From positions 3,328,001 through 3,392,000 of the forward strand of contig CP170459.1 in assembly GCA_047947115.1 (NCBI GenBank): a DNA stretch of 64,000 nucleotides, given 5' to 3'. A program made the position numbers and the translations under genes. Positions 1 through 18,600 of this stretch are shown one piece after another. Origin of the DNA: Verrucomicrobiota bacterium. GTDB taxonomy: Bacteria > Verrucomicrobiota > Verrucomicrobiia > Limisphaerales > AAA164-E04. The stretch's first letter is position 1; each line of letters opens with the position of its first letter. The notes under the pieces were generated by a model, which did not search any database, was not told where the DNA came from, and saw nothing but the letters and a program-made list of their open reading frames with translations.

Positions 1-1731
1 GGGTGATTGAACGGTCATTTTGGCTCCAATCCCCTGGGTGTTAGGAGACGTGCCCTTGAGCTGTATGCGGATGCGCGCCTGCCCTGCGTTGTTGCGGTAG
101 ATCAGGGGAGCATGGTTCAGGCAGTTAACCACCGCGTCGAGATCCCCGTCATTGTCGAGATCGGCCAGCGCCATGCCATGGGATACTTGTGTGGCGTCAA
201 ATCCCCATTCACTTCCCAGTTCGGTGAAGGTCCCGTCTCCATTATTCCGAAATGCCACGTTGGGTGTGTAAAGGATAGGGAACTTTTTGCGTAAGGCGAT
301 TTGCTCCGGGTGGGAGAGATGCTGACTTTTGGTGGCTTCATCCAACTGTCGCGCGACATCCGCGTTTTGGGCGTCGCGCCAGTGTCCGGTGGTGATCAGT
401 AAATCTTCGTAGCCGTCCAGATCCACATCCAGAAAGACCGGACACCACGACCATTCAGACGCTTCCACCCCGGCGTAACGGGCCAGCTCGGCGAAGGTGC
501 CATCGTTTTGTTGCAACAGGAGTGTGTTTCGGGGGGATTGAGGCCGGCCGGAAAGGCTGTCACGAAACTGGCTGAACGCGGTTCCGTCCATGACCTGCAC
601 CATGCGGCGCTTGTGCGATCGGCTCAACATGTCTGCCACAAAGAGATCATCCAGCCCGTTGCGATCGATGTCTGCGAAATCGAGTCCCATGGAGAACAGG
701 CTTGTCTGACGAAGCGTGGTGTTGTCGGCTTCCTTGAACCGTCCCTTACCCTGGTTGATCCAAAGCCGGTCGGGCGATTGGAAATCATTGCAGACATACA
801 AATCCGGAGCGCCATCCCCATTTGTATCCCGAAACATGGCCGAGAGTCCCCAATCAAAGGGCGTTGATGCGGGGTTTCCATCGACGTCCAGAAAACTCCC
901 CGTTTCCCATGAAACCGCCTCGAAACCTACCTTTCCAGTGTGTAAGTATAATTGATCCGGCTGACCATTCTCAAGCACACCATTTGTCCGGTCAAAAGTG
1001 AACCTTCCTTTTAGTTCGGGACTGTCTGAGGGTTGCCCGTTGAAGGAAATGAGTTTGTAGGCCCCGTTTTCCATGCGGATGTCGAATTGACCCGGCGGCA
1101 TGTCGCGCATGGTTTCGTTGCGGTAATGAACAACATAAAGATCCAGCCACCCGCTGCCGTCGACGTCGGCCAAGGCCATGGAGGCTCCGGCTTGTGTGCC
1201 TTTCAGATGCCAGGTGTCGGTGTTTTCGGTAAAGGCTCCGGTTCCGTCGTTCAGAAAAAGTCGAACACCACGGCGATGTCCTGTGACCAATAAGTCCAGA
1301 TCCTGATCCCCATCCATGTCGGCCAGCATGGCTCCGGTGGAGGATTGGTCAATGCATGCAGCACCTCCGGCATTGGGCTGTTCCTTGAAATGCCAGTTTC
1401 CTTCTCCCAAAAACAGCTTGTTCGGACTGTCCAAACAGCAAAAATAAAGATCACACCAGCCGTCACCGTTGACATCGCCTGCTGCGACTCCGGAACCGTT
1501 CAGGAGGATTTGATTTTGGATGCCTCGCTCTGCATCAAGGTTGTTTGTGAAGTTGACACCTGCCGTTTCACCTTTGATCAGGCTGAAACCGACTTGTTTA
1601 TCTGGCTGAGGTGGAATGGGTGCCCAATCGTATCCTTCTTCGTGGGACCATGATTGTCCATAGCTCAGGATGCTTGTTTTGCATAAAAGCAAAACGAAAC
1701 CAAGCAATGCTGTTCTCATCCATCCGGGCAT
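1..1731 (-). CDS. FG-GAP/VCBS repeat protein with ASPIC/UnbV domain (CRTAC1 family), 3' end runs off the window
   Basis: Not in the ORF track; translated by hand. ATG at 1731 (in-frame TAA upstream at 1743-1741) gives MPGWMRTALLGFVLLLC (signal-like), then GVAAGDVNGDGWCDLYF, LADMDGDQDLDLL, LADVDGSGWLDLYV, and LKGTSPNTQGIGAKMTV at the window edge (start of ASPIC/UnbV). Confidence 0.9.
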   Translation of the reverse strand, partial: MPGWMRTALLGFVLLLCKTSILSYGQSWSHEEGYDWAPIPPQPDKQVGFSLIKGETAGVNFTNNLDAERGIQNQILLNGSGVAAGDVNGDGWCDLYFCCLDSPNKLFLGEGNWHFKEQPNAGGAACIDQSSTGAMLADMDGDQDLDLLVTGHRRGVRLFLNDGTGAFTENTDTWHLKGTQAGASMALADVDGSGWLDLYVVHYRNETMRDMPPGQFDIRMENGAYKLISFNGQPSDSPELKGRFTFDRTNGVLENGQPDQLYLHTGKVGFEAVSWETGSFLDVDGNPASTPFDWGLSAMFRDTNGDGAPDLYVCNDFQSPDRLWINQGKGRFKEADNTTLRQTSLFSMGLDFADIDRNGLDDLFVADMLSRSHKRRMVQVMDGTAFSQFRDSLSGRPQSPRNTLLLQQNDGTFAELARYAGVEASEWSWCPVFLDVDLDGYEDLLITTGHWRDAQNADVARQLDEATKSQHLSHPEQIALRKKFPILYTPNVAFRNNGDGTFTELGSEWGFDATQVSHGMALADLDNDGDLDAVVNCLNHAPLIYRNNAGQARIRIQLKGTSPNTQGIGAKMTVQSP

Positions 1732-1843
1732 GTGGATATGTTATGAATTTTTTTTGCCAGGGAACCAGCAAAATGTATTTGAGCCAACGCTTGTCGAATC
1801 AGGACTCGACTTTTATGCGGGAATGATTTTTCTTAAAACAACC

Positions 1844-3781
1844 ATGTCCCACTTTCAGATCAATCCCTCTAAAATTCTGTCCATTGCATCCTTGATCCCT
1901 GTTGGCTGTTTCGGCTTGCCCAATGGAACGACCGCACAGGATGTTTCAGCGGAACATGCATATGCCATCAATCGACTGGAAGCCCGCCGCGTTTATCAGG
2001 AACAGTTGGCCCGGCAGATGAAAGCAAAGCACGACTTTGGATTTGTGGATGCGGTTCTATCCAGTGGCGTAAACTTTGAGCATCATGTGGTGGATGATGC
2101 GGGATTGACATACAAGGCGGCGCATTATGACCACGGCAACGCGGTTGCGGCGGCTGATGTGGATGGTGACGGATGGGTGGATCTCTACTGGACCACACAA
2201 GGCGGAGAAAATGAACTGTGGCGGAATCTTGGGAAGGGTCGCTTTGAAAACATCACTTCAAAGGCTGGGGTGGGTTTGAAGGATCAAATATCAGTAGGAG
2301 CCTCCTTTGCGGATGTCGATAATGATGGCGATGTTGATTTGTTTGTGACCACCGTTCGTTTTGGGAATTATTTGTTTCAAAACAAAGGTGATGGGACATT
2401 CGAAGACGTTACGAAGGCATCCGGGTTGAGTTACACGGGGCATTCTTCCGGAGCAGTCTTTTGGGATTACAACCGGGATGGATGGTTGGATCTTTTTGTG
2501 ACGAATGTCGGGAAATACACCATGGAGAGTCAGGGAAGGGGAGGTTTTTACGAAGCCTATCCGGATGCTTTTTCGGGGCACCTTTTTCCTGAGCGAACTG
2601 AAACCAGTATTTTGTATCAAGGGATGGGAAACGGGAAATTTAAGGATTTCACCGAGGAGACCGGGCTTAAGGACGGTAGTTGGAGCGGTGATTGTTCGTT
2701 TTCTGACGTGAATGGGGATGGCTTTCCAGACCTTTATGTTGTCAATATGCAGGGAGACGATCACTTTTATCTGAATCAAGCCGGGAAAACGTTTGTTGAA
2801 AAAGGTTCAGAATATTTTCCCAAAACACCGTGGGGTGCCATGGGAGTAAAGTTCTTCGATGCCAATCAGGATGGGAAACTCGATCTTTACATCACCGACA
2901 TGCATTCGGACATGAGTCAGGGGCAGACTGTTGAAGCGCTGCGGTTCCATCCGGACGCTGAAAAGGCCAAGAGTGAGGGGTTTTGTTCCGTGCAGTGGAC
3001 CGACGATTATTTGCAGGGTGCTTCCAATAACATTTTTGGCAACGCCCTTTATTTGAGTCAATCCAACGGCCGATACGCGGAAAGATCATCCTCATTCAAC
3101 GCCGAGACCTATTGGCCCTGGGGGTTCAGTGTGGGAGATTTGAATGCCGATGGTTTTGATGATGTGTTTGTCGCCGCAGGGATGGGGTATCCCTTTCGGT
3201 ATGGAATCAATTCCGTTCTTTTGAATGAAGGTGGTCGCCGGTTTTTCGATAGCGAGTTCGTGTTGGGTGTGGAACCGCGGGGAGACGGACGGACGGAAAA
3301 GGTTTGGTTCACCGTGGATTGTGACGACAAGGACAAAGACCACCGGGAATGTCAGGACCAAAGCGGGATGAAACCGGTGCTCGGCACCTTGAGCACTCGA
3401 TCATCCGTAATACTCGATGTGGATAAGGATGGTGATCTGGATATCGTGACCAATGAATTCAATGATCGCCCACAGATTCTGTTGAGTGATTTATCCAACA
3501 AATCACCCGCCAATTACCTTCAAATCAAGTTGCTTGGTAAAACCTCCAATCGGGATGCGTTGGGTGCCATGGTGACGGTGACAGTTGATGGAAAAGAGTT
3601 TGTTCAGTTACATGATGGCAAATCTGGTTATCTGGCGCAAAGCTCCATGCCGTTATATTTTGGTTTGGGACAATCAAAACAAGCAGAACGAATAAAAATA
3701 GTCTGGCCATCCGGCAAGGTGCAGGTGTTGAGCAAGGGGTTGAAAGCCGGGAAGACCTTAACCGTTGAAGAATCTGAATAG
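1844..3781 (+). CDS. FG-GAP repeat protein with C-terminal ASPIC/UnbV domain (CRTAC1 family)
   Basis: Repeated DxDxDGxxDL motifs (DVDGDGWVDL, DVDNDGDVDL, DYNRDGWLDL, DLNADGFDD). C-terminal NRDALGA...GYLAQSSMPLYFGLG...IVWPSG. Start moved from 1670 to ATG 1844 (1823 possible) because 1670 overlaps the divergent gene. Confidence 0.9.
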   Translation: MSHFQINPSKILSIASLIPVGCFGLPNGTTAQDVSAEHAYAINRLEARRVYQEQLARQMKAKHDFGFVDAVLSSGVNFEHHVVDDAGLTYKAAHYDHGNAVAAADVDGDGWVDLYWTTQGGENELWRNLGKGRFENITSKAGVGLKDQISVGASFADVDNDGDVDLFVTTVRFGNYLFQNKGDGTFEDVTKASGLSYTGHSSGAVFWDYNRDGWLDLFVTNVGKYTMESQGRGGFYEAYPDAFSGHLFPERTETSILYQGMGNGKFKDFTEETGLKDGSWSGDCSFSDVNGDGFPDLYVVNMQGDDHFYLNQAGKTFVEKGSEYFPKTPWGAMGVKFFDANQDGKLDLYITDMHSDMSQGQTVEALRFHPDAEKAKSEGFCSVQWTDDYLQGASNNIFGNALYLSQSNGRYAERSSSFNAETYWPWGFSVGDLNADGFDDVFVAAGMGYPFRYGINSVLLNEGGRRFFDSEFVLGVEPRGDGRTEKVWFTVDCDDKDKDHRECQDQSGMKPVLGTLSTRSSVILDVDKDGDLDIVTNEFNDRPQILLSDLSNKSPANYLQIKLLGKTSNRDALGAMVTVTVDGKEFVQLHDGKSGYLAQSSMPLYFGLGQSKQAERIKIVWPSGKVQVLSKGLKAGKTLTVEESE

Positions 3782-3905: not shown

Positions 3906-3940
3906 CCTCATTCACTATTCACTATTTTTTATTCACCATT
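3906..3940. repeat. Degenerate heptamer tandem repeat (consensus CACTATT)
   Basis: CCTCATT-CACTATT-CACTATT-TTTTATT-CACCATT at a 7-nt period. Confidence 0.55.
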
Positions 3941-3973
3941 TAAAAGGCCGGTTTCCCAAGGGAAACCGGCCTT
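3941..3973 (-). terminator. Rho-independent terminator of the large repeat-protein gene
   Basis: Perfect stem AAGGCCGGTTTCC (3944-3956) / GGAAACCGGCCTT (3961-3973), 4-nt loop, ending in TTTT on the minus strand, ~25 nt after the stop at 3997. Confidence 0.85.
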
Positions 3974-3996
3974 GCAGTTTTCAGATTGAGTATCGA

Positions 3997-6900
3997 TTAC
4001 TGAGCAATAAAGAATCGGTTGCCGTCTCCGATCTCGATGCTTGAGCTGGGCGGTGTAGCGCCTGCTACGGGAGTGAACGGCCCGGTGACCGTTGAGGATT
4101 CCAGTAACTGGTTGCCTGTCCATTCGATGACCAGATTGCCTTCCTGAACGGAGAAGCTGCTGATCTCGGCCGCTGCGACAAATGGGACGGATCCACCTTT
4201 GATCACGGCATTGTCGAAGTTACCAATAGTCTGGTTGCCCTGGATTTCACCTGTTTCCGGATCAGCGCCACCCACATTGTCAGCATAGGCACCGATGCCA
4301 AACTGCAATCCGCTGGAGAACGGGAAGTCAATTTCGACTCCGAACACGTCATCCAGGAACAATTTGGCGGTGGCACCGTTCAGGGTGATTTTCATCCGAT
4401 GATCGCCTCCATTATCAAAAGGAGGTCCATCGAAGGCGGGAATGTTGACACCGATGCCGGTCGCATCGTCGTCCGGAGCGCCCGTTACCTTGTTGTAGTG
4501 CCAGCCGTAGTTGCGTCCATCATGGGTGGTGTAATCGTTGAACAGGATGAAGTTTCCATTTCCATCGCGAACCCACAGACCGGTTCTTGATTCCGAACCG
4601 GTTCCTTCTTCAAGCACGAAGTCGACATTGGATCGGTCGATTTCGAAGGTCAGCGGTTCCGCAGAACTTGCGGAATAACTGTCGACCGTGAAGATGGCAA
4701 TACCCGGCCACAGTGCTTGTTCCACTTCCACATGAATAACCACTTCACCGTTTTCGAAACGAATTTCGGATTCGGGAGCAGGTTTCAGGATGCCGCTTGG
4801 GTCGAAGGGGGTTTCGTCCACTGTCCATTTGCTGCCGTCCAACGATGCCCCGGAGAAATCATCGGTGAGGAACGTTTCCGGCACCGACACAATCTCCACG
4901 CTGACGGAACCATCCACACAGGCGCCAGCGTCATTCGTGGCGGTGAACGATGCAGAACCGAGCCCGACGGCGGAAACACCCACTGTTTGCTTGTTGGATG
5001 AACCAGCAGGGAAGGTCAAGGTGAGCGATCCGTTTGAAGCCCCTGCAGGAACCGCGACGGCAGGATTGTTACTGGTCAGGGTGACTGATACATCCGCCGA
5101 ATCGTTCAGCAGGCGAGGCACCGTGACAGTGATTTCGCCTCGCTCGGCCAGTGTGAGCAACACATTTGACGGAGACAGGTCGATGCACGGAATCACGTTT
5201 TCGATTTTGACGTTGTCAAAAAGTCCGATCACATCATCGTCCGCATTCTGTGCATAAGCGCCCAGTTCAACGTGAATGCCGGCGCTGACTTCGAAGGCAA
5301 ATTCACCGCCGGAAACACCATCCACAAAGACTTCGACGGTGCTGCCGTTTGCCACGAGTTTCAACTGGTGTTCCCCAAAGTCCTCGAAAGGAGCAAATGC
5401 GGCGATAATCGTGCCTCCTCCGGTAGGTGAACCGGGATTGGTGTTCACTCGCCACGCGGCATTGTTGGCGTCATCCAGTTCCTGTGACAGGAAAACGAAT
5501 CGGGAGCGATCGTCGTTGGTGAGGAATACACCGGTTCGACCGGCGGTTCCGAATTGATCAATGGAAACTCGATCCACTTCAACAACGAGGTTCAGATCTT
5601 CCGTTGCGAGATAGGAATCCACTGTCTTCAGCGAAGCACCCGCCCAGTTGGCCGTATCGACGATGCCTTCGATCTGTATTTGACCACCCGAGGCTTCCAC
5701 GGTGAAACTGCCGCTGCCATTACCGAAGGGTTCTTCGGAGATCTGCCAATTTGAGCCATCAATGGAACCGGCGAAATCGTCTTCCAAGACCACACCTGGG
5801 TCGGAAATGACCGCGACACTCAGGCGATTGCCGCCTGCGATGTCACCCTGGAGACTGAACTCAGTTCCACCAAGACTCACGCCTGAAATGCGGAACGTTT
5901 GTGAGTTGTCGCCTCCGGCAGGGAAGGTCAAGGTGAGTTTGCCGCCTGTTCCGCCTTCCGGTGTGGCGATGCCTGGATCGGCGCTCACGACTGTCACGGA
6001 CACGGCTCTTTGGGAGTTTAATCCTTGAGGAATGCGGACAGAAACAGGCTGGCTGGTTCCGCCTTCACGAACCCCGATGCCTCCGGGTGAGAACGTTGCT
6101 CCCCCTTCGCTCTCGATGACCAGGTTGTCCCAAACAACATTGGCATTGTCGTTGTTGGCACGTGCATAAGCACCGAAGTGGAAAACAACTGGTGAAAAAG
6201 GGAAGGGAACTTCAGCTCCTTCGACTCCATCCAGAAGCAGTTTCACTGTTTGGCCGTTGGCCACCATGCTCATGTTGTGCAGTCCCGTGTCGCCATCCAA
6301 TGAATCGAAGGCTGCAATGTTCGCTCCACCGCCGGTCGGGGTATCGCCTTCCTGCCCGATTTTTCGGTTGAATTGCCATCCGTTTTCCCCCGCATTTTGG
6401 GCAAAGAGAACATAATTGGATTGAGATTCATCAAGGATCCATAAGGCACTACGCGTGGCAGTGCCGACATCTTCTACCGATACGCGGTCGATGGAAATGG
6501 TGATTTTTTCCGAATCGGAAGGAGCAAATGTCGGAACGATCTGCAAGGTGCCACCTGACCACCATTGTTGGGTCGTTGTGCCAACGAATCGCATCACTCC
6601 ATCGCCAGGTTCTCCACGAATATCACCTACACCGCCTTCGAAGAACGGGGAACCGGCGACGTATTTAGCGGGATTGATGTCATTTGATTCGAAGTCATCG
6701 GAGAAAACAATGTTGCTTTGTTGGGGCACTCCGACGATTTCCAAATTGTCCCAGGTAACGTTTGCCTGATCATTATTAGCCCGAGCATATGCTCCGAAAT
6801 GGAAGACCACGGGAGAAAACGGGAATGGAACTTCGGCTCCTTCTTCGCCGTCGAGGAGGAGTTTTACGGTGGAACCGTTTGCTACAATGCTCATGCGATG

Positions 6901-8094
6901 CAGTCCAAGGTCCCCGTCCAACGAATCAAATGCCGCGATGTTGGAGCCTCCACCGGTAGGGTTGTCCCCGGCCTGGCCTATTTTTCGATTGAACTGCCAG
7001 CCGTTTTCACCTGCATTTTGAGCAAATAGCACATAATTGGTTTCTGATTCGTCAAGAATCCATAGTGCGCTGCGAGCAGCTGTTCCCACATCGGTGACCT
7101 CCACCCGGTCAATGGAAGCAGTCACAGGAGCATCCTGGGTGGGGGCGAATGTTTCTTTGATGCGAAGCGTGCCGCCTGACCACCATTGTTGAGTGGTGGT
7201 GCCTGTGAAGCGCATGACCCCGTTTCCAGCTTCCGCATGGATGTCGCCTACACCACCTTCGAAGAAGGGTGCTGCAGGTTCAAATTTAGCTGCATCAATC
7301 GAATCTGATTCAAAGTCGTCCTCAAAAAGAGTGGTGGTTCTGACCACGGTTTCAATGGTTAGATTATCCCAGGTCACATTCGCGGCGTCATTGTTCGCTC
7401 GTGCGTAGGCGCCGAAATGGAAGACCACGGGAGAAAACGGGAATGGAACTTCGGCCCCTTCTTCGCCGTCGAGGAGGAGTTTCACGGTGGAACCGTTTGC
7501 CACAATGCTCATGCGATGGAGTCCGAGATCACCGTCCAGCGAGTCAAACGCAACGATATTGGAGCCCCCACCGGTGGGATTGTCCCCGGCTTGGCCTATT
7601 TTTCGATTGTATTGCCAGCCGTTTTCTCCGGCATTTTGAGCAAAGAGCACGTAGTTGGTTTCCGATTCATCAAGAATCCAGAGCGCGCTTCGCTCGGCAG
7701 TTCCGACGTCTGCTATTTCAACTCGGTCGATACTTGCTGTTACCGGAGTGTCAGGTGTGGCATCGAACGTTTCCTTGATTCGGAGTGTTCCACCTGACCA
7801 CCACTGCTGGGTGGTGGTGCCGACAAATCGCATGACACCATCTCCCGCTTCCGCGTGAATGTCTCCTACACCACCCTCAAAAAAGGGGGAAGCCTCCTCG
7901 AATTTGGAGCTGTCAATGGTGTTCGATTCGAAGTCGTCCTGGAAGACAACCGTGGATACTTGTGCGTTTGCTTTCTGGATTTGACCGACAAATCCAACCC
8001 ATAGTGCACACACAAGTGCGAAACTGAGCTTGCCGTGATGCCGCCAGAAGGCGTTTTCACGCAGCTCATTCATGTGGTTTGCTTTTATGTCCAT
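3997..8094 (-). CDS. Large secreted acidic protein: five copies of a ~206-aa beta-rich (possibly ConA/LamG-like) domain, two Ig/Calx-beta-like linkers and a short C-terminal domain
   Basis: Signal peptide (KLSFALVCALWVGFVGQIQKANA-Q). Repeats start xxDDF and end W/FDNxxI. Two linkers share LTLTFPAG. Start ATG 8094 or 8073 rather than 8178. Confidence 0.9.
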   Translation of the reverse strand: MDIKANHMNELRENAFWRHHGKLSFALVCALWVGFVGQIQKANAQVSTVVFQDDFESNTIDSSKFEEASPFFEGGVGDIHAEAGDGVMRFVGTTTQQWWSGGTLRIKETFDATPDTPVTASIDRVEIADVGTAERSALWILDESETNYVLFAQNAGENGWQYNRKIGQAGDNPTGGGSNIVAFDSLDGDLGLHRMSIVANGSTVKLLLDGEEGAEVPFPFSPVVFHFGAYARANNDAANVTWDNLTIETVVRTTTLFEDDFESDSIDAAKFEPAAPFFEGGVGDIHAEAGNGVMRFTGTTTQQWWSGGTLRIKETFAPTQDAPVTASIDRVEVTDVGTAARSALWILDESETNYVLFAQNAGENGWQFNRKIGQAGDNPTGGGSNIAAFDSLDGDLGLHRMSIVANGSTVKLLLDGEEGAEVPFPFSPVVFHFGAYARANNDQANVTWDNLEIVGVPQQSNIVFSDDFESNDINPAKYVAGSPFFEGGVGDIRGEPGDGVMRFVGTTTQQWWSGGTLQIVPTFAPSDSEKITISIDRVSVEDVGTATRSALWILDESQSNYVLFAQNAGENGWQFNRKIGQEGDTPTGGGANIAAFDSLDGDTGLHNMSMVANGQTVKLLLDGVEGAEVPFPFSPVVFHFGAYARANNDNANVVWDNLVIESEGGATFSPGGIGVREGGTSQPVSVRIPQGLNSQRAVSVTVVSADPGIATPEGGTGGKLTLTFPAGGDNSQTFRISGVSLGGTEFSLQGDIAGGNRLSVAVISDPGVVLEDDFAGSIDGSNWQISEEPFGNGSGSFTVEASGGQIQIEGIVDTANWAGASLKTVDSYLATEDLNLVVEVDRVSIDQFGTAGRTGVFLTNDDRSRFVFLSQELDDANNAAWRVNTNPGSPTGGGTIIAAFAPFEDFGEHQLKLVANGSTVEVFVDGVSGGEFAFEVSAGIHVELGAYAQNADDDVIGLFDNVKIENVIPCIDLSPSNVLLTLAERGEITVTVPRLLNDSADVSVTLTSNNPAVAVPAGASNGSLTLTFPAGSSNKQTVGVSAVGLGSASFTATNDAGACVDGSVSVEIVSVPETFLTDDFSGASLDGSKWTVDETPFDPSGILKPAPESEIRFENGEVVIHVEVEQALWPGIAIFTVDSYSASSAEPLTFEIDRSNVDFVLEEGTGSESRTGLWVRDGNGNFILFNDYTTHDGRNYGWHYNKVTGAPDDDATGIGVNIPAFDGPPFDNGGDHRMKITLNGATAKLFLDDVFGVEIDFPFSSGLQFGIGAYADNVGGADPETGEIQGNQTIGNFDNAVIKGGSVPFVAAAEISSFSVQEGNLVIEWTGNQLLESSTVTGPFTPVAGATPPSSSIEIGDGNRFFIAQ
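6110..7950 (-). repeat. Three near-identical intragenic tandem repeats (periods 618 and 621 nt)
   Basis: The first Phe codon of FxDDFES lies at 7944, 7326 and 6705. PFFEGGVGDI, GTTTQQWWSGGTL and VPFPFSPVVFHFGAYARANND occur in all three copies. Confidence 0.95.
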
Positions 8095-8519: not shown

Positions 8520-8547
8520 TTGACTTTCAAATCACTTTTCATACTGT
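8520..8547 (+). promoter_or_regulatory. Putative sigma70 promoter of lexA
   Basis: TTGACT (8520-8525), 16 nt spacer, TACTGT (8542-8547). Overlaps the SOS box, as expected for autorepression. Confidence 0.5.
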
Positions 8548-8576
8548 TCAAAAAAACAGTATGAAAAGTGATTTGA
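8527..8576. repeat. Perfect 22-bp inverted repeat with 6-nt spacer spanning the lexA start codon
   Basis: TCAAATCACTTTTCATACTGTT (8527-8548), CAAAAA, AACAGTATGAAAAGTGATTTGA (8555-8576). Confidence 0.97.
8544..8559. promoter_or_regulatory. LexA operator (SOS box)
   Basis: CTGTTCAAAAAAACAG immediately upstream of the lexA ATG. One mismatch to the Verrucomicrobia motif TGTTC-N4-GAACA and an exact match to CTGT-N8-ACAG. Confidence 0.8.
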
Positions 8577-10353: not shown

Positions 10354-11778
10354 ATGAAATCATTCTGGTTCTCGCTGCTGTGGTGCTTTTTAGCCTCCGT
10401 TGCTCTCCGTGCCGAATCTGCCCAAAAGAACAACGTTGTCCTGATACTCGCTGATGATCTCGGGTGGAGCGATCTGGCGTGTTATGGGAGCGATCTTCAT
10501 GAAACACCGCATTTGGATCGCCTGGCGGGAGAACAGATTCGTTTTAATCAGGCCTATGCGGCGAGTCCTGTTTGCACACCGACCCGTGCGTCCATATTGA
10601 CCGGACGTCATCCTGCCCGGCTCAACATGACCATCTGGCGTGAAAACGCCTTGAACCGAGGCAATCGGCGCTTGTTGGAACCCGTGACCTTGGATGCCTT
10701 GCCTCTGGAGGAAACCACCTTGGCAGAGGTCTTGAAACAGGCGGGCTATTATACGGCACATGTTGGAAAGTGGCATCTGGGATCTGCGGAAGCCTATCCG
10801 CAGTCGCATGGATTTGATGTCAACATTGGAGGAACCTTGTGGGGAGCTCCCCAGAGCTTCTTTTATCCATTTAAAGGAGATCAGTATTTTTCAGACTGGC
10901 GTTATGTGCCGGATCTTGAACCGGGTGAGGAAGGGGATTATCTGACGGATCGACTGACTGATAAAGCCATTGAGATCATGGACCGATGTGCAGGAGAGCA
11001 GCCCTTTTATATCAATCTCTGGTATCATTCGGTTCATACCCCCATTGAGGGTAAACCAGCCCTTGTCCAGAAATACAAAGACAAAATCAAGCGAGTGCGT
11101 CCCGTGAACCATCTGAATCCGGACTACGCGGCGATGGTGGAAAGCCTCGATGAAAACGTGGGGCGGGTCTTAACCCGACTGGATGAACTGGGTCTTCGGA
11201 ATCAGACGCTGGTCGTTTTTCTTTCCGACAACGGAGGTTTCATCAACGGTTCTCGTTTGCAGAACGGGATGCCCGTGACTTCCAATGCGCCTCTCCGATC
11301 TGGAAAGGGTTCCTGCTACGAAGGTGGCATCAGGGTGCCGATGATCATTGATCTTCCAGGTGCGAACCAGAAGCCACGCGTGGTCGAGACCCCCGTGACG
11401 ACCTGTGATTTGTTTCCCACCATTTTACGTTCGCTCGAAGTGGCGTGGCCGGAGGATTTGGTGTTGGACGGTGTGGATGTCCGGTCGTTGTGGTCCGATG
11501 TCCATGCCAATTTGGATCGTCATGCGTTGTATTTTCATTATCCTCATTATTATCCCACCACGACTCCTGTTTCATCCATTCGACAGGGTCCCTGGAAGTT
11601 GCTGGAGTATTATGAAGACCAGACGCTCGAACTTTATCATTTGACAGATGATCCGGGTGAGATCCGCAATCTGCTTGACAGTCAACCGTCGGCTGCCGAA
11701 CGCCTGCGCACACAATTGAAATTATGGCGCGAATCGGTGTCGGCATCCATGCCAGAGAAAAATCCTCATCAGCCATAG
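10354..11778 (+). CDS. Secreted sulfatase (S1, formylglycine-dependent)
   Basis: Signal peptide; ILADDLG; CTPTR (CxPxR) with ASILTG; GKWHLG; SDNGG; YEGGIRVP. Confidence 0.95.
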   Translation: MKSFWFSLLWCFLASVALRAESAQKNNVVLILADDLGWSDLACYGSDLHETPHLDRLAGEQIRFNQAYAASPVCTPTRASILTGRHPARLNMTIWRENALNRGNRRLLEPVTLDALPLEETTLAEVLKQAGYYTAHVGKWHLGSAEAYPQSHGFDVNIGGTLWGAPQSFFYPFKGDQYFSDWRYVPDLEPGEEGDYLTDRLTDKAIEIMDRCAGEQPFYINLWYHSVHTPIEGKPALVQKYKDKIKRVRPVNHLNPDYAAMVESLDENVGRVLTRLDELGLRNQTLVVFLSDNGGFINGSRLQNGMPVTSNAPLRSGKGSCYEGGIRVPMIIDLPGANQKPRVVETPVTTCDLFPTILRSLEVAWPEDLVLDGVDVRSLWSDVHANLDRHALYFHYPHYYPTTTPVSSIRQGPWKLLEYYEDQTLELYHLTDDPGEIRNLLDSQPSAAERLRTQLKLWRESVSASMPEKNPHQP

Positions 11779-11838
11779 CCGGGCGAACAGTTTTTCGAGG
11801 TTGATCAGAGGTCTGTCTTGGTGCAGATTCGCTTCCGT

Positions 11839-12894
11839 ATGCAATCTCGTTTCTCAATGCTACTGTTCGTGCTGTTCACAGGCAGTCAATGGCTCCTGTC
11901 CTCAGCGGAGACTCCTGCTCATTCGGCTGTCACACCTGCTCCCCGCGAAGGTGGATGGATGAATCGACATGAGTCGTTCAATCAAAAAGTCCAGGCTAAT
12001 CAGGGCAACATTGATCTGGTGTTCATCGGTGATTCCATCACCCAAGGATGGGAGGGGCGTGGCAAAATGGTTTGGGAAACATATTACGGACACCGCAAAG
12101 CATTGAATCTTGGGATCGGCGGTGATCGCACACAGCATGTTCTATGGCGTTTGGATCACGGCAACATGGATGGGATTCAACCCAAGGTGGCCGTGGTAAT
12201 GATTGGCACCAACAACTCTGGCGACGACCGCAACACCGCCAACGAAATGGTGGATGGCGTGACGGCGGTGGTGGAGAAACTGCGTGCCAAAAGTCCCGAC
12301 ACCAAGATCCTGTTACTGGCCATTTTTCCGAGAGGAGAAACGTTCAACGATCAACGCGGCAAGATTCTTCAGGTTAACCAGGCCATCCGGAAATTGCAGG
12401 ACAACAAGCATGTTTTCTTTTTGGATATTGGCCATCGGTTCATGGACAAAAATGGGGTGATTCCGAAGGCCATCATGCCTGATTTTTTTCATTTCTCCAC
12501 AGCGGGGTATGGTGTGTGGGCTCAGGCGATAGAATCCAAGCTTGCTTCTTTGCTGGGAGACGAAGCGGTCAAAGCAATCGCGGCCGAGTTGAATGGAACG
12601 TGGACGTTTTCGATCAATGGTCCTGACGGGCAGGTGGATTCTGAAATGAAACTACGCCGCAAGGGCGCGCAATTGTTTGGTTCAATTGTCATGGGCAATG
12701 ATCGTGAATTTCAATTGGAGCAAGGAGGTGTATTCGGGAATCGGGTTGAATTCACTATCCGCCGCGACCGTCCTCAAGGCGGGGAGGCAGTGTATCATTT
12801 GGTTGGAGAAATAAAAGGAGGCAAACTTGAGGGAGAAGTCACCGCCACGCTGAATGACGAAAAGACCACCCAACCCTGGTGGGCGGTGAGATAG
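11839..12894 (+). CDS. SGNH/GDSL esterase (PAF-acetylhydrolase IB-like) with an extra C-terminal beta domain
   Basis: FIGDSIT, GIGGD, IGTNN and DFFH blocks; signal peptide; ~100-aa C-terminal extension. Confidence 0.9.
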   Translation: MQSRFSMLLFVLFTGSQWLLSSAETPAHSAVTPAPREGGWMNRHESFNQKVQANQGNIDLVFIGDSITQGWEGRGKMVWETYYGHRKALNLGIGGDRTQHVLWRLDHGNMDGIQPKVAVVMIGTNNSGDDRNTANEMVDGVTAVVEKLRAKSPDTKILLLAIFPRGETFNDQRGKILQVNQAIRKLQDNKHVFFLDIGHRFMDKNGVIPKAIMPDFFHFSTAGYGVWAQAIESKLASLLGDEAVKAIAAELNGTWTFSINGPDGQVDSEMKLRRKGAQLFGSIVMGNDREFQLEQGGVFGNRVEFTIRRDRPQGGEAVYHLVGEIKGGKLEGEVTATLNDEKTTQPWWAVR

Positions 12895-13094
12895 TTGGTG
12901 GAAATACAATATCCTGGTTAGTGCATAGGTGATCGCGCAGGTTAATGCCGGTAGATTCCCAACGAACTGGTATCTGTTGTGCCCGCTGGCATCAGCCATC
13001 TGGATGTGGGGTGTTGGGTGCGGCAGGGATTTCCACTGGGAGATGAAATGCGGGTTTTGGATGTCATGCTGTTTACGCGCCGAGACAACACACT

Positions 13095-13421
13095 CTACCT
13101 TTGGTGGTTGTCGATGTGGAATACTTCGCGGCAATCGGTCGATTGAGGGCTTTTGTCCGGATTTGTTTCCATAAGGAGGCTCATATGTTGCCACCATTTT
13201 CGACAGATGGGGGTTTGCGCGATGCTGTTCCATCTGGCTTCATCTTCGATTTCTGCGTAGGCAAAGAGTTGGCGTCCGTCGGGGTGTAGAAAGATGCTGT
13301 AGGTGGTCACTCCGTGTTCGAAAAGGACTTGTTCGAGTTCCGGCCAGATGGGGTTGTGACGCGTTTCATACTCGGATTCAAATCCGGGTTTGAGAGTCAT
13401 GACAAATGCTTTGCGGATCAC
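13095..13421 (-). CDS. rhaM: L-rhamnose mutarotase
   Basis: MIRKAFVM...EYETRHNPIWPEL...YSIFL...LFAYAE...WWQHM...EVFHID; GTG start. Confidence 0.93.
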   Translation of the reverse strand: MIRKAFVMTLKPGFESEYETRHNPIWPELEQVLFEHGVTTYSIFLHPDGRQLFAYAEIEDEARWNSIAQTPICRKWWQHMSLLMETNPDKSPQSTDCREVFHIDNHQR

Positions 13422-13426
13422 GGTGC

Positions 13427-13921
13427 TTAAAGAGGGAGGTCCACTCGTTGAGGGGTTTTTGTGTCAGTGTTGTAAATGACCAGTGTTGAGTTTCCGGTCA
13501 GGCCCCCGTAAACCTCACCCGGATTGATCAGCTGACAGTCGCCGGTTTGGGTGAGTTCAAATCGGTGGTTATGACCAAAGCAGACGACGTCGTATCGTCC
13601 GGATTCAGCGAGTACGCGCGCGATATTGTCGAAATGATTCATGCCAAACCTTACATCATTGAATGTCAGCTCCGCCAATTCGCCGTGGAGTTGGATCTGG
13701 GGGTAGGCTTTGCTGTTTTGGGTGATTCGGAACAGATCGCCGTCGTTGTTGCCGAAGACCACATGAATCGGTTTTTGATATCCTTCCCCAAGTGCTTTGA
13801 TGACAAAGGGGGAGCATAGGTCGCCACAACAGAGCAGGGCGTCCGTTTCTTGAATGGCAACCAGCGCCTTCTTCAACTGGGGCAACTGGTCGTGGATGTC
13901 TGATAGGATGCCTATTTTCAT
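13427..13921 (-). CDS. YfcE/MJ0936-family metallophosphoesterase
   Basis: SDIH, GD, GNND, GHNH and INPG motifs. Confidence 0.9.
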   Translation of the reverse strand: MKIGILSDIHDQLPQLKKALVAIQETDALLCCGDLCSPFVIKALGEGYQKPIHVVFGNNDGDLFRITQNSKAYPQIQLHGELAELTFNDVRFGMNHFDNIARVLAESGRYDVVCFGHNHRFELTQTGDCQLINPGEVYGGLTGNSTLVIYNTDTKTPQRVDLPL

Positions 13922-13931
13922 GTTTTGATTT

Positions 13932-15320
13932 CTATTCTTTAGTGGTTTTCATCATGCGTTGAACCGCTTGGGTTATCTGAAATTCAACATCCGAGGACCA
14001 TCGTGTAGGTTGCCCGTAATAGACCATCGAACCTCCGCCCTCATAACCACCTTCCGTCCAGACACGCTTGGATGGAATGTATCCCATGATGTCGTGAGAG
14101 TAACCTGCGACCCAGACATGTGGACCGTATTCCTTTTTGAAACGCAGGGCGAAATCCACCACGACTTCCCCGCCCAAAGTGATCCATTCAATTTGATCAC
14201 CCAGCCGCCAAAGTCCGACCGGGTAGTCATAGGTTTGCGGGATGGATTCTCCGGATTCCAGATGTTTCAACCATTTGTTGGCTCTGGAAGCTGCGTAACG
14301 GTTTTCCGAACTTGCTTCCTCCTCAAGCGATTCCTTGCTTGGGAGACTGTCGAACCGTAACGGGATTTCATTGTAATCGGTCTCGAGAGAAGCTTCGACC
14401 TCTGGCAAGGCTCCTTCGATGCCACGGATGACGGCTTCTCCGAGAGCTTTTCCATAAGCTTCCGCCAGTTCGACTTTTCGGCGTGGAAGGGGATTGATAT
14501 CCGCTCCACAGCCGGCCCAGAACATGGCTTGGACACCCTCGTACGCATTTTCAAGGTAGGCTTGTGCGTAACCCGGATAATCACCCGACCATTGATAATC
14601 ACTCAACACCGTTGCATGGCAGGCGTAGCCAAAGATCAGGCCTTGAAGTTCGTTGTCTTGATTGCGAACCTCCAGGATGGGGACGGAATAATCCACCGGA
14701 CCCAGCAGTTTACCGGCTGCACGCCATGCTGGAACGTGTGACTCAGGGTTTTGCCTTCGGTTGGTGGCGAAGGTGGCGTGGGATTGACCAGCTCTCAATC
14801 GGGCGGTTTGTCGGTTTTGAAAGGCTTTCTTGCCCAGTTCAACGAGTTGTGATTTCAGTTGAACCGTGTAGGTTCGAATGAGCTTGGAGTCCGTTTCTTC
14901 GAGAATGTACATGGTGCGGAGATTCTCCCCCACCACAGGACCGGTATGTGTGTGTGAACAATTGATCAGAATATCGCCGAGGGTTAATCCGAGATCTTCC
15001 GCCAACTGCCTGCGCACAGGACCGGTCACATCTGCTGAAACTCCAACCAGGTCCAAGGTGATTAATAGCGCCTGTGAGCCCGACGCATCTTCAAGAGCCA
15101 TGGCTTTCGCCCAAAGGGGGGTGCGGGTTCCTTCGGCTCCCCGGTCTCGGGAGGCGTAACCACTCATCCAGACCGATGCCTGCGGTGTGATTTCCTTTCG
15201 GGCAAAACCGATTTTCCACCCTGCGGAGGTGACAAGTTGCCATGAGATCAATCCTGACAGGTACACAGTGACAAGCATTGCTCGTGGTACAAAAACTCTC
15301 TGAAATGACAAGGATTGCAT
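13932..15320 (-). CDS. Neutral/alkaline ceramidase N-terminal-domain amidohydrolase
   Basis: ITP...MSGYASR, SHTHTGP, YACHAT, SGDYPG, GCGADINP, GYIP...EGGYEG. Confidence 0.85.
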   Translation of the reverse strand: MQSLSFQRVFVPRAMLVTVYLSGLISWQLVTSAGWKIGFARKEITPQASVWMSGYASRDRGAEGTRTPLWAKAMALEDASGSQALLITLDLVGVSADVTGPVRRQLAEDLGLTLGDILINCSHTHTGPVVGENLRTMYILEETDSKLIRTYTVQLKSQLVELGKKAFQNRQTARLRAGQSHATFATNRRQNPESHVPAWRAAGKLLGPVDYSVPILEVRNQDNELQGLIFGYACHATVLSDYQWSGDYPGYAQAYLENAYEGVQAMFWAGCGADINPLPRRKVELAEAYGKALGEAVIRGIEGALPEVEASLETDYNEIPLRFDSLPSKESLEEEASSENRYAASRANKWLKHLESGESIPQTYDYPVGLWRLGDQIEWITLGGEVVVDFALRFKKEYGPHVWVAGYSHDIMGYIPSKRVWTEGGYEGGGSMVYYGQPTRWSSDVEFQITQAVQRMMKTTKE

Positions 15321-15660
15321 GTGTCGAATCCTACCTTGAACGGCACGGATTGAAAAGAAGATCTGATTACGTCACCTGATAAAATGGCCGTTCAGTTGAT
15401 TCCCGGTCAGGAGTTGACATGGGAGCTGTCCGGCTCCGAGTCATCGTCATGCGGGATACGGTGTGAATAAGGAAGAGGTAATCGGTTGTCATGGTTGGGC
15501 GCCCCCAGCATTAGAAATGGGATGGTATCGGCCTGAGTAGGAATCGCTGCATGTGCTGGCGTATCCAAAGAGGTGTCGAGCCACTCCAGACCACAACCAA
15601 GACGCTCCCATGCATTATCTTGAAGGAAACACAGAGGATGTTGTGAAGAGTAATGGCTTG

Positions 15661-18600
15661 TTACCTGGTTTGTTTTAACTGCATGACATCGCTGCGCCGG
15701 TTTTGAAAGAAAACCCTGTAAAAGTAGTTGTTCATGTTTGTGTCCGGGTTGTTGCTTTGGGATTCCTCGAACATCCAGGCTTCCATGCGGCTGTCGGGTT
15801 CATACGTAAATGACACCAGTTGGTCGAGGTATTGAGTGAGTCTGGGGAAATTGTAAGGCTGATTGACCCAATCCTTGAATTGTTGGGAGCCTCCATAGAA
15901 TCCGTTGTAGGGTCTTGTGCCAAAGGATAGGTCGGCATCCCATTGCAGAAACTGGAAACGATGATCGTTTGGACGCCGATAGAAGTAGGCGTTCTTTCCG
16001 CGCGACTGGGTGAATGTGTCCCAATCGGCAATGAAACCCAATACCGCCGTCATTTTCAGTATGGCCTCCGAATCGAGAATGGCTTCCACTTTGTCCTGAG
16101 TGTAGTCGGGCCGGTTGATCAACTGAATGAAATCGATGAACGCCGTGTAATCGTCATCTTCCTCTCGGGAACGTTTCATCCAGGAATGTCGATAATGGGC
16201 GGGATGGTCCGGGCCGAAATTGTGCCAGCTAGCGTCCCTGGGCTGTTGTGACCAGTGGTCCGACATCCACCAATCGTCGTCAACGCGGTAGAGTTCCCCC
16301 TCGTTGCCGTTTTTGAAGTTTCGGTTGAGATAGTCGGAATCCACGGGTTCAACGTCTTCTCTCACATGAATCCCTCCTGCATTGATGATGACATAAACGA
16401 ACTCGTTTTGACCGCTGACATGTCCCAAAAGGTAGAGCCGATACCGTGCAATGCGATTGTGGTGGCGATAGGCGCCTCCGTTGCGGGTGGGATCGTTGTC
16501 GAATGCAAATTTTCCGTGGTCGCGGAATCGTCGGTCATTCGGGAGTTTCCATTTGCCTCGATCCATGCTGTTTCGGCGTGTCCAGGGACTGCCGCTTGGT
16601 CTCAGAACGGCACCTGTATAGATATCCCGTTCGTTGGAGATGAAAGTTGCATTGAAGTATTGGTTGGAAAGTCGAGGGTAACGGAATCCGTATGCCTCGC
16701 TTTGCTCCCGGTAAATGGCGTTCAGATGGTTGTTGGAAATCAACAAGCGCACCACTCGCAGATCTGAAGGGATAGGGCGGCCGTCAAACACGCACAAGGC
16801 CGGGGCGGCAGCAGCGCCTCTTGGCAAGGTGGTGCGCGGTCCTTTGGTAGGGATGGTTTCGATGTAATACTGGATTAATTCACCTTGCTGGTATGTGTTT
16901 TCCAACTGGATTTGATAAGTGGTGAGTGCTGTTGAAGATGGGCTGCCAGGTGCCAACGGTGACATGGGGGCCCGTTTCCACGGTTCCTTGTAATCACCAT
17001 CCAACCGATAAACCAGATTCACCAAGCCGGGTTCGCGGTGCCATCCAATGTCAGCCTCAATGGTCAAAGTTTCTCCGGGTGCGGGGACGGCCGGAGATTG
17101 ACGGAGTGCTTCCACCAGAGCAGGTGGATCGAGGTGCCACCTGGAATTTTGCTTGCCGGGTGTGCCGATGTCTACGGGGACCGAAAGGAGAATGGATTCT
17201 GAAAGGCTGTTCTCCCAGGTTCGGGCGATGAGCCTTGGGGAGCCATGCACCCAGCGGGCTTCAAAGGACAGTTCGTAATCGGTGTTGCGCTTCAGTTCGG
17301 TGATGTCTATCTCTGCGCGGTTGGCCCGGTTGTCCCCGTGACCGTTGGAAATGAGGTGAAGACGTCCGTTCTCCACGTAACTGTCCGCATGATTGCCCTG
17401 GATCAACCAACCGGTGGAACCGTCGCCTTCAATGGACAGCCGATCCGGATGTTCCAACAGGTTTTTGGAACTTCCTTTTTCCCGTAGTTGAATGTTTTGC
17501 AGGATGACATGACTCTCCCCGACCAGATACAAGTGCAATTCCTGATGATCCATGGGATGCCAGTATTGCTCATGTGCGAAATAACGGTTGGAGAAGGAAA
17601 AAGACTGGAACTCGGTGGTGCGGGATTCGCGGCTGTCTTTCCATGCGGAAGAATGGACGTTGTCCATATATGGATTGATCAACTCCATGCTGCTGCCTTT
17701 GCCTTGTGCCAGAGTGGGCCAGTCGCCTTCGGTTTGATAATCGATTTCGTCGGCGAGGTTGCCCTGAGCGTCGAGGAGCGTGATGTGTTCTCCATCATTG
17801 CTCAATTTTCCTTTCATCGGTCCGAGCGCGTTTAGATCCGGATGAGCGGTGTTCAATGCCTCAGGGTGATCTGCGATCACCAGGAACCCCCCAGGCTCTA
17901 TGGAAGTGCCTTCCGGAAATGTGTATTCAATTCCGCCGGCGAGTTTCCATCCATGCAAATCGATTGCCCGATCGCCGCGGTTGAATAGTTCGATGAATTC
18001 AAGATCCGGCTGGCCATAGGGTGGGTCATACATGATTTCGTTGATGACCACGTCCTCGCTGCGTTGGATGATGTTCGGCTGGTTCCGGGTATTGTCGATG
18101 GTCGTAAACCATTGCTTGCCTCCATCCGGGAACCGTTGGATGGAGGCATTATCCGGGACACTCAGTTTCTGTGCGTCCATGACAAGACCGGTGTTGCGAT
18201 GGATCAGAAAGATGCGAAATGTTTGGTCAGACGTTTTTTCCATCGTCAACTTGAAGGTGGCAAAACTGAACGGGGAAAGAGCCCCTTGGATCGGTAATGC
18301 GTTTTGAAATTTCGTTCCCATCGAAAGAGCCAGCTCATCGAGTTGCAAGATTCGGTCCGTATTGTTGAATAATTCAATGTCCAGAGTGTCGGAATGCCTT
18401 CGAGTGATCTCATTGAGGAAGATTTCTCCTCGTGCTGCTATTCCGCTTTCCGGGAAAGGAGCCGCTCCCGGTGTGCCTCCCGGGTGCTTGCTCGCTTTCC
18501 AGTTGCGCCCATCATTGATGCGGCGATCAGGGTGGCGAACCACCATGCTGTAACCGGCTCCGGCTGCCTCAATCGGCCAGGGAGGATCGTTGTCGAATTC

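What the first reader, a model, noticed from the sequence alone, without database searches (positions are those of the whole stretch)
3997..8094. Secreted protein made of five copies of an unrecognised ~206-aa beta domain
Seen: architecture is signal peptide, R1-R2-R3, linker, R4, linker, R5, C-terminal domain. R1-R3 are near-identical (PFFEGGVGDI, TTTQQWWSGGTL, SALWILDES, QNAGENGWQ.NRKIGQ, FHFGAYARANND). R4 and R5 are diverged but keep DDF, (I/V)DR, ANG/LNG, GAYA and FDN. The two ~100-aa linkers are homologous (LTLTFPAG). The protein is acidic and Gly-rich, with no recognisable catalytic motif. Inference: a multivalent ConA/LamG-like lectin, adhesin or surface-layer protein; the invariant WW in R1-R3 could form a glycan-binding platform. 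I cannot assign the repeat to a named family.
Basis: partly seen in the sequence, partly recalled or inferred. Interest (0 to 1): 0.7.

Follow-up and report, generated by a model that had tools for sequence, protein, structure and literature searches.

The report
Sugar-binding repeat protein with propeller partner
This real, conserved Verrucomicrobia gene encodes a likely exported protein with five copies of an uncatalogued domain predicted to fold like a sugar-cutting enzyme but lacking its cutting residues, so it likely binds sugars, and it travels with one specific propeller-protein gene and ends in a likely export tag shared by over a hundred other proteins.

Summary
Observation confirmed. 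The 1365-aa ORF (3997-8094, minus) is signal peptide-R1-R2-R3-L-R4-L-R5-tail. R1-R3 are 75-87% identical, R4/R5 32-38%. The repeat folds (pLDDT 97.5) as a GH16-type beta-jelly roll (Z 17.3, 13% identity). None of 545 repeats has the GH16 or PL7 catalytic motif, and no Pfam family covers it. It recurs as an accessory module on GH78 rhamnosidases and PEP-CTERM proteins. It is most likely a new carbohydrate-binding module using Trp55/Arg91/Asn119, not the WW pair. The 'linkers' are Ig-like domains.

(1) The 55-aa tail ends 117 proteins in this genome, matches no Pfam/NCBIfam model, and swaps with PEP-CTERM: a candidate undescribed sorting signal. (2) The gene sits beside two specific FG-GAP/ASPIC-UnbV propeller genes in 36 of 39 verrucomicrobial loci. 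Among 401 genomes of the order, the 51 scoring highest for the larger propeller all carry the repeat. Other propeller clades pair with other lectin-repeat proteins.

Best reading: a multivalent surface glycan-binding protein working with a cognate propeller (60%). Ligand, export route and propeller function are untested.

The parts
3997..8094 (-). Gene for the 1365-aa repeat protein (R protein)
   Evidence: 247 homologues; sequence held in 20 RNA runs of 17 studies
7963..8094 (-). Predicted signal peptide (aa 1-44, ending A-N-A|Q)
   Evidence: read from the sequence; homologue N-termini show a hydrophobic stretch ending A-x-A-Q just before the first repeat; no signal-peptide predictor was available
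7345..7962 (-). Repeat R1 (N-type), predicted GH16-like jelly roll, non-catalytic
6724..7344 (-). Repeat R2 (N-type), 87% identical to R1
6103..6723 (-). Repeat R3 (N-type), 75-77% identical to R1/R2
5800..6102 (-). L1, likely Ig-like spacer domain
   Evidence: 40% to L2; weak Calx-beta hit on the same region of homologue P0118
5191..5799 (-). Repeat R4 (middle type)
4882..5190 (-). L2, likely Ig-like spacer domain
   Evidence: Big_9 E 0.0036, LapA E 0.0053, both under cut-off; Atlas Big_2 leads
4189..4881 (-). Repeat R5 (end type)
4000..4179 (-). C-terminal ~55-60-aa beta domain shared by 117 proteins of this genome; candidate sorting/anchoring signal
1670..3781 (+). Partner B: single FG-GAP propeller + ASPIC/UnbV protein (longest ORF 703 aa; true start probably about 1847)
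   Evidence: Pfam; 23 neighbour ORFs in other loci hit it best
1..1731 (-). 5' part of partner A: double FG-GAP propeller + two ASPIC/UnbV domains, 1243 aa (G000:C1:3326000-3329731; runs off the window)
3944..3973 (.). G+C-rich hairpin between the convergent R and B genes, possible terminator
   Evidence: seen by eye; not listed by the terminator scan; RNA contig ends lie at 3924-3979

Best explanation
The protein is likely an exported, surface- or matrix-held multivalent glycan binder: five uncatalogued domains predicted to have a GH16-type fold, but without its catalytic residues, would each grip a sugar, and the protein likely works with the two FG-GAP/ASPIC-UnbV propeller proteins encoded beside it. 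Shown: the repeat architecture, the absence of GH16 and PL7 catalytic motifs, transcription, the shared C-terminal tag, and the gene pairing. Predicted: the jelly-roll fold and the Ig-like spacers. Inferred: (1) Sec export. (2) The C-terminal tag routes or anchors the protein outside the cell, as PEP-CTERM or type IX tails do. (3) A GH16-like structural Ca2+ site (D10/G42/D199; position recalled from GH16 structures). (4) The concave groove (W55, R91, W95, Y104, N119, R188, with E29 from a loop; faces assigned from strand alternation and the GH16 register, not from coordinates) binds a probably acidic or rhamnose-containing glycan. (5) R1-R3 give avidity for one ligand while R4 and R5 bind others. 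(6) The cognate double propeller A binds or processes the same glycan.
For: Fold: AlphaFold pLDDT 97.5, 13 strands. The top nine VIA rows are GH16 enzymes or GH16-fold glycanases (Z 17.3, rmsd 2.9, 195 aligned, 13% id). Rows at Z 15.2-15.9 include GH43 enzymes and galactocerebrosidase (matched ranges are their C-terminal, non-catalytic domains by recall), a phage Dit CBM2 and ERGIC-53. No catalytic motif: 0 of 545 repeats have E-x-D-x(x)-E, 0 have QxH. Accessory-module behaviour: R is appended to GH78 rhamnosidases (P0194, P0205, P0234), Glyco_hydro_cc proteins (P0208, P0235), subtilases (P0180, P0251), CotH kinases and LamG arrays. A conserved polar/aromatic set persists in 51 distant full-length domains: W55 51, N119 50, W116 49, R80 49, R91 47, R188 42, E29 40, W95 40. 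Seven unlinked paralogues in G596 (six aligned) vary mostly in the loops assigned to this groove while R5 and the tail stay nearly constant. N-type copy number is 1-3, and copies within a gene are more alike (0.77-0.81) than same-position copies between genes (0.72-0.75). Tag: 117 proteins of G000, 0 hits on reversed tails, 120 of 140 whole-protein hits terminal. Among 146 new R-bearing representatives, 40 end in the tag and 23 in a PEP-CTERM-like tail, none in both. Pairing: 36 of 39 loci; 58 of 58 neighbour ORFs hit A or B best among 23 paralogues; 51 of the 51 top A-scoring genomes carry R; the 18 R-neighbour propellers in the tree form one clade, support 0.87. Other tagged proteins beside propeller genes carry LamG, CBM9, F5/8, PA14 or CBM4_9 domains. 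Precedent: FG-GAP-type propellers of Vibrio Bap1/RbmC bind exopolysaccharide (10.64898/2026.08.03.742583, abstract; the FG-GAP label is recalled).
Against: No binding data exist, and a shared fold shows no function. No CAZyme, TonB receptor or EPS gene recurs beside the R gene; the other recurrent neighbours scanned were DUF1559, PSCyt, DUF1549/1553 and DUF1501 genes, so the ligand is not named by context. 17 of 68 R-positive genomes have no top-scoring A: 8 of genus g230, 2 of g232 and G700 with divergent repeats, the rest fragmentary or weak. B occurs in 44 genomes without R and only 41 of 68 with R. The A profile was built from R-neighbours, which inflates their scores, and the gap is thin (G596 948.4 bits, R-positive; G460 948.3, R-negative). 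Kin are not independent. Nearest-neighbour identity still favours same-position orthologues for 204 of 237 repeats, so homogenisation is partial.
Confidence: 0.6

Rival explanations
1. Scaffoldin-like docking platform: the near-identical R1-R3 domains are protein-binding modules, like cohesins, that hold several copies of the cognate propeller A on the cell surface.
For: Strict pairing of N-type repeats with the A clade. Proteins whose first repeat lacks the PFFEGG/QQWW signature, and G596 paralogues with mutated loops, have no propeller neighbour where flanks were read. A-specific invariant residues cluster in the first half of A, 26 of 35.
Against: R is appended to unrelated enzymes, and to proteins of genus g230, whose genomes have no match to the A family where listed (G444). 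The sister cassettes use recognised carbohydrate-binding domains (CBM9, LamG, F5/8) in the same slot.
Confidence: 0.14
2. The repeat is an unrecognised polysaccharide lyase or hydrolase that uses Tyr186 with Arg91/Arg188 in a PL7-like groove.
For: PL7 lyases match at Z about 15. The only Pfam hit on the protein is Alginate_lyase2 (E 0.0068, under cut-off) over the G-A-Y strand. R91 is 544 of 545 and Y186 496 of 545.
Against: Y186 is Phe in 43 of 545 close repeats and Tyr in only 5 of 51 distant ones. No QxH or E-x-D-x(x)-E motif is present. Five tandem copies and C-terminal placement on glycosidases fit a binding module better.
Confidence: 0.1
3. A structural surface-layer or sheath subunit whose repeats self-assemble.
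For: Acidic, beta-rich and exported. In one RNA run the gene's contigs are 80-204 deep against about 10 for A and B (contig depth is a poor measure, and the runs were selected with this gene).
Against: Found in only 68 of 401 genomes of the order, missing from close kin G432 and G508. Copy number varies from 1 to 3. The same domain sits singly on enzymes.
Confidence: 0.08

Closest known systems
GH16 glycoside hydrolases (PDB 7fgz, 6t2o, 4bow, 3dgt; carrageenase 9efl)
   Same: Predicted beta-jelly roll over the whole domain (Z 16-17; TM 0.69). N-terminal DDF..IDxxKW motif (9efl, E 0.002 and 0.0007). RSALWI aligns with WPAIWL.
   Different: 9-16% identity. The catalytic E-x-D-x(x)-E strand is replaced by NYVLFAQ-type sequence (0 of 545). 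Five copies per chain.
Non-catalytic ConA-clan binding domains (GH43 C-terminal sandwich, galactocerebrosidase lectin domain, phage Dit CBM2 5ly8, CBM66, L-type lectins, LamG)
   Same: Fold at Z 14.5-15.9. Use as an accessory module on glycosidases and surface proteins.
   Different: No full-length sequence match to any of these families; Laminin_G_2 hits on homologues cover only 30-60 residues.
PL7 alginate lyases (1uai, 2cws, 5zqi)
   Same: Fold (Z 14.9-15.3). G-x-Y on the penultimate strand.
   Different: No QIH motif; the Tyr is not conserved family-wide.
Vibrio cholerae Bap1/RbmC biofilm adhesins (bioRxiv 10.64898/2026.08.03.742583, abstract only)
   Same: A beta-propeller and surface-binding functions act together outside the cell; the propeller binds exopolysaccharide.
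   Different: There the propeller and lectin domains share one chain (recalled); here they are separate genes, the propellers carry ASPIC/UnbV domains, and no EPS genes are linked.
C-terminal sorting signals: type IX secretion CTD and PEP-CTERM
   Same: One short terminal domain on many unrelated exported proteins, including a C25 (gingipain-family) peptidase. It fills the same slot as PEP-CTERM in R proteins.
   Different: No Pfam/NCBIfam match for 62 tails. No transmembrane helix in 117 of 117. About 55 aa, five strands, weakly like the first ~75 residues of FnIII (Z <= 5.2).

Membership tests
GH16 | beta-jelly-roll fold | tested here: met
   (predicted model; Z 17.3, rmsd 2.9, 195 aligned)
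GH16 | catalytic E-x-D-x(x)-E motif | tested here: not met
   0 of 545 repeats between positions 95 and 116; register
GH16 | Pfam PF00722 match | tested here: not met
   not listed at E <= 0.1 for the protein or at E <= 1 for 11 homologues and single repeats
PL7 lyase | QIH motif | tested here: not met
   0 of 545
PL7 lyase | invariant catalytic Tyr of YFKAGxY | tested here: not met
   Y186: Tyr 496, Phe 43 of 545; Tyr in 5 of 51 distant domains
Laminin G (PF02210/PF13385) | full-length profile match | tested here: not met
   none for this protein; homologues pass the summed cut-off through partial stretches only
Carbohydrate-binding module | non-catalytic domain appended to carbohydrate-active enzymes | tested here: met
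   GH78 proteins P0194, P0205, P0234; Glyco_hydro_cc proteins P0208, P0235
Carbohydrate-binding module | demonstrated glycan binding | not testable with these tools
   needs a glycan array or ITC
Type IX secretion CTD | terminal beta-sandwich on many exported proteins | tested here: met
   117 proteins; 120 of 140 hits terminal; all-beta model, pLDDT 95.6
Type IX secretion CTD | match to type IX CTD models | tested here: not met
   0 of 62 tails in Pfam or NCBIfam at E <= 0.1
Type IX secretion CTD | SprA/PorP machinery in the genome | tested here: inconclusive
   no match, but the controls did not ring either
Type IX secretion CTD | structural match to solved CTDs | tested here: inconclusive
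   not among the listed rows; best Z 5.2 to FnIII-type domains
PEP-CTERM | PEP motif, transmembrane helix, basic tail | tested here: not met
   no PEP-CTERM hit on this protein; no hydrophobic helix in 117 tagged tails; met by planctomycete R proteins L065 and L082
CRTAC1/ASPIC-UnbV family (partners A and B) | FG-GAP repeats plus UnbV_ASPIC domain | tested here: met
   B; A, two ASPIC stretches
S-layer protein | self-assembly into a lattice | not testable with these tools
   needs microscopy

The most novel reading that the evidence does not exclude
Limisphaerales have an undescribed outer-surface system. A non-membrane ~55-aa C-terminal tag (a truncated FnIII-like sandwich) sorts more than 100 proteins per genome without PEP-CTERM or a recognisable type IX machine. 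A subset of tagged multi-lectin proteins each comes with its own cognate ASPIC/UnbV double propeller, forming modular 'lectin + propeller' cassettes: a Verrucomicrobia counterpart to surface glycan-capture or matrix modules. The pairings would give the first systematic handle on what bacterial CRTAC1-like propellers bind or catalyse, and R would found a new CBM family.
Probability: 0.35. Interest if true: 0.75.

Novelty: new variant of a known kind. Interest (0 to 1): 0.52.

Why it matters
Limisphaerales are abundant, mostly uncultured aquatic Verrucomicrobia (own knowledge), and how they display proteins and bind glycans is little studied. This locus gives three testable items: a candidate new carbohydrate-binding module derived from the GH16 fold; a candidate new C-terminal sorting signal on over 100 proteins of one genome; and a strict lectin-propeller gene pairing that narrows the search for the function of bacterial ASPIC/UnbV (CRTAC1-like) proteins. 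I found no paper describing any of these in nine full-text searches. The library lacks most subscription papers, so this is not proof of novelty.

Tried and rejected
- PDB sequence search with R1: 0 hits at E <= 10. Profiles gave only short N-terminal GH16 matches.
- NCBIfam: nothing over cut-off for the protein or nine Verrucomicrobia homologues.
- Atlas first hit DUF6645 (score 0.95, 144 shared features, under the 170 typical of true members): not supported by any Pfam scan; kept as a lead only.
- Complex prediction of A's first half with R1: score 0.00, no verdict; not used for or against binding.
- Link to the divergent lexA gene: no lexA in the ORFs of the 41 related loci; rejected.
- Link to the window's sulfatase or rhamnose mutarotase: they do not recur among the neighbour clusters.
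- The 332-aa tagged gene beyond A is not an R homologue (probability 0.8%).
- No GH16 gene found in G000.
- Type IX machinery searches were uninformative.
- The sigma-70 scan found no site upstream of the gene.
- Earlier-findings look-ups by sequence and by the first word set were empty.
- The ice-binding-protein paper (PMC9957290, passages) only lists IBP-FG-GAP-ASPIC fusions as 'cell adhesion'.
- The sorting-signal preprint (10.1101/2023.06.07.544157, passages) mentions Verrucomicrobiota only for PEP-CTERM. Its supplements were not seen.
- No fusion of R with an FG-GAP propeller appeared among the 63 proteins scanned or the top 120 longer hits; weak evidence.
Full report
OBSERVATION. The minus-strand ORF 3997-8094 encodes 1365 aa. 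It divides into a signal-peptide-like N-terminus, R1 (45-250), R2, R3, L1, R4, L2, R5 and a 63-aa tail. R1/R2 are 86.9% identical, R3 75-77%, R4/R5 32-38% to the others, and L1/L2 39.8%. All repeat pairs score z >= 30 over shuffles. The sequence is held in 20 metatranscriptome runs from 17 studies. In two studies the RNA contigs end at 8185 followed by adapter sequence, a weak hint of a 5' end about 90 nt before the ATG.

DISTRIBUTION. A whole-protein search gave 247 homologues; the 120 listed are 42-100% identical, and those with a taxon name are Verrucomicrobia. Their architecture is (R)1-3-L-R-L-R-tail, with a few R-L-R-L-R-L-R forms. The tail is present in 116 of 119; the three without look truncated. 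The repeat was found in 68 of 401 genomes of the order and 3 of 401 sampled from the phylum. G000 has this one gene. A profile search of 50%-identity representatives gave 328 clusters. Related domains also occur in planctomycete proteins.

FOLD. No Pfam or NCBIfam family passes cut-off on the protein. Homologues collect partial hits to ConA-clan families: Laminin_G_2, 3keto-disac_hyd, Laminin_G_3, GH32 C-terminal. AlphaFold with 114 repeats gave pLDDT 97.5 and 13 strands. Foldseek's first hit is a GH16 glucanase (TM 0.69), with L-type lectins and PL7 lyases close behind. VIA-align ranks GH16 first (7fgz Z 17.3, rmsd 2.9, 195 aligned, 13% identity), with non-catalytic sandwiches at Z 15-16. L2 gives weak Ig-like signals, so the 'linkers' are probably folded spacers.

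NOT AN ENZYME OF THESE FAMILIES. Profile alignment with three GH16 proteins from relatives puts RSALWI on WPAIWL and NYVLFAQ opposite the EIDIME strand; the register inside that strand is low-confidence. A direct count makes the register unnecessary: none of 545 repeats has E-x-[DE]-x(1,2)-E there, and none has the PL7 QxH. The PL7-like Tyr186 is Phe in 43 of 545 and Tyr in only 5 of 51 distant domains. What persists in distant domains is W55, G57, R80, R91, W116, N119, and mostly E29, W95, R188. From strand alternation and the GH16 register I infer that W55, R91, W95, Y104, N119 and R188 line the concave groove, while R80 and W116 are structural.

BEHAVES LIKE A BINDING MODULE. Among 63 R-bearing or context proteins scanned, R occurs with GH78 rhamnosidase domains (3), Glyco_hydro_cc (2), subtilases (2), CotH/LTD, LamG, DUF642-like, Ig and LRR arrays. 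In G596 one canonical copy sits beside a propeller gene. Seven more copies (six in tandem) lie elsewhere. In the six of these that I aligned, the inferred groove loops of the first two repeats are rewritten, often with added Trp/His, while the last repeat and tail are nearly constant. That pattern suits a diversifying ligand-binding surface. In 79 three-copy proteins, R1-R3 are more alike within a gene (0.77-0.81) than between genes (0.72-0.75), although 204 of 237 repeats still find their best match at the same position in another protein.

THE TAIL. A profile from the homologues' tails hit 39 G000 proteins, 37 at their C-terminus. Four iterations reached 117 proteins (not converged), with no hits on reversed tails and 120 of 140 whole-protein hits terminal. 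Median length is 898 aa; 106 end with an F/Y/W-x-R-type strand and none has a terminal membrane helix. A crude N-terminal hydrophobicity test separated them only modestly from other long ORFs, 78% against 60%. Sixty-two tails match no Pfam or NCBIfam model. The model is a confident five-stranded sandwich resembling, weakly, an FnIII domain without its last strand (Z <= 5.2). Among 146 new R-bearing representatives, 40 end in this tail and 23 in a PEP-CTERM-like tail, none in both; Phycisphaerae-type forms end in a dockerin-like tail (by eye). A C25 peptidase of G000 also carries it. A sorting or anchoring role is inferred, not shown. Searches for type IX components were inconclusive.

THE PARTNERS. 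In 36 of 39 verrucomicrobial loci an FG-GAP/ASPIC-UnbV gene lies within about 3 kb of the R gene, upstream or downstream and in either orientation. The three exceptions have under 1.8 kb of flank; the two planctomycete loci have no such gene. G000 has 23 such genes, yet all 58 neighbour ORFs (some are pieces of split genes) hit best the two beside R: A, a 1243-aa double propeller (35), or B, a single propeller (23). Across the same 401 genomes, 201 hold the A family. The 51 highest-scoring genomes all carry R, and of the next 29 only one does. R-negative close kin (G432, G508, G729) lack a top-scoring A. Seventeen R-positive genomes lack it, mostly those with divergent repeats or fragmentary assemblies. 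Caveats: the profile came from R-neighbours, the score gap is thin, and kin are not independent. A tree using half of the 32 full-length neighbours, plus G596's and G000's copies, groups all 18 in one clade (support 0.87). A separate clade (1.0) holds the propellers found beside a CBM9-repeat tagged protein. B is less specific: 85 genomes, 41 shared with R. In 13 of 20 B loci from R-negative genomes a tagged gene lies within 5 kb. In G000, 12 of 23 propeller genes lie within 2 kb of a tagged gene, against a mean of 3.9 and a maximum of 11 in 3000 circular shifts. The enrichment is in tails most like this one: 9 of 37 against 4 of 80 within 5 kb. Those neighbours carry LamG, CBM9, F5/8, PA14 or CBM4_9 domains. 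No CAZyme or transporter recurs beside R.

MECHANISM. Most likely (0.6), the protein is exported, held outside by its tail, and presents five groove-bearing domains on Ig spacers; R1-R3 bind one glycan avidly, and propeller A binds or processes the same glycan. The family includes marine, lake, groundwater and treatment-plant genomes by their record titles and has no linked degradation genes, so the ligand could be the cell's own matrix polymer. The precedent is the Bap1/RbmC propeller binding Vibrio exopolysaccharide (abstract). The GH78 fusions point instead to a rhamnose-containing glycan. Rivals: a cohesin-like dock for A (0.14), a cryptic lyase (0.10), a surface layer (0.08).

NOVELTY. 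The fold and the general design (multi-lectin surface protein) are known kinds. The domain family, the tail and the cognate lectin-propeller cassettes were not found in Pfam, NCBIfam or nine literature searches (listings only, apart from the passages and the abstract). Verdict: new variant of a known kind, interest 0.52.

Noticed in passing
window 8527-8576: Perfect 22-bp inverted repeat overlapping the likely ATG (8561) of the divergent lexA gene. Its core reads CTGT-N8-ACAG, like an SOS box (motif recalled); probably the LexA autoregulatory operator.
   Followed up: partly
G596:C1:921500-940100, 1280000-1283000 (L109, L110, L118): Six tandem and one dispersed paralogue of the three-repeat form, with hypervariable Trp/His-rich groove loops and a constant C-terminal half; looks like a diversified adhesin repertoire.
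   Followed up: partly
G000:C1:14793-20900: 2035-aa tagged protein with two C25 peptidase domains of identical score, 3408 nt apart; a recent duplication or an assembly repeat.
   Followed up: no
G000:C1:3505079-3508825 and 5557762-5561625 (L170, L172): FG-GAP ORF followed directly by an ASPIC-redoxin-TPR ORF, the layout that earlier notes read as a UGA-split selenoprotein; the stop codon was not examined.
   Followed up: no
L179, L180, L183, L190, L194: Sister cassette: CBM9-repeat protein, its own double-propeller clade, a B-type propeller, and a small gene whose best G000 hit looks like a formylglycine-generating-enzyme-family protein (family recognised by eye).
   Followed up: partly
G000:C1:4248085-4250613 (L174): The L spacer also separates DUF642-like repeats in another tagged protein, and does so in P0170, P0174 and P0177 together with R.
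   Followed up: partly
genus g230 genomes (L111, L112, L114, L115, L120): Small (1.8-2.9 Mb) genomes with many divergent R domains in 400-2900-aa Ig/LamG/PA14 proteins and no propeller neighbour in the regions read.
   Followed up: partly
L063, L072: Records titled Akkermansia muciniphila carry typical Limisphaerales-type R loci; the titles are probably mislabels.
   Followed up: no
window 10354-19104: Sulfatase, GDSL esterase, L-rhamnose mutarotase, metallophosphoesterase, ceramidase-like and LTD/CotH genes; ordinary, and not conserved beside R.
   Followed up: partly
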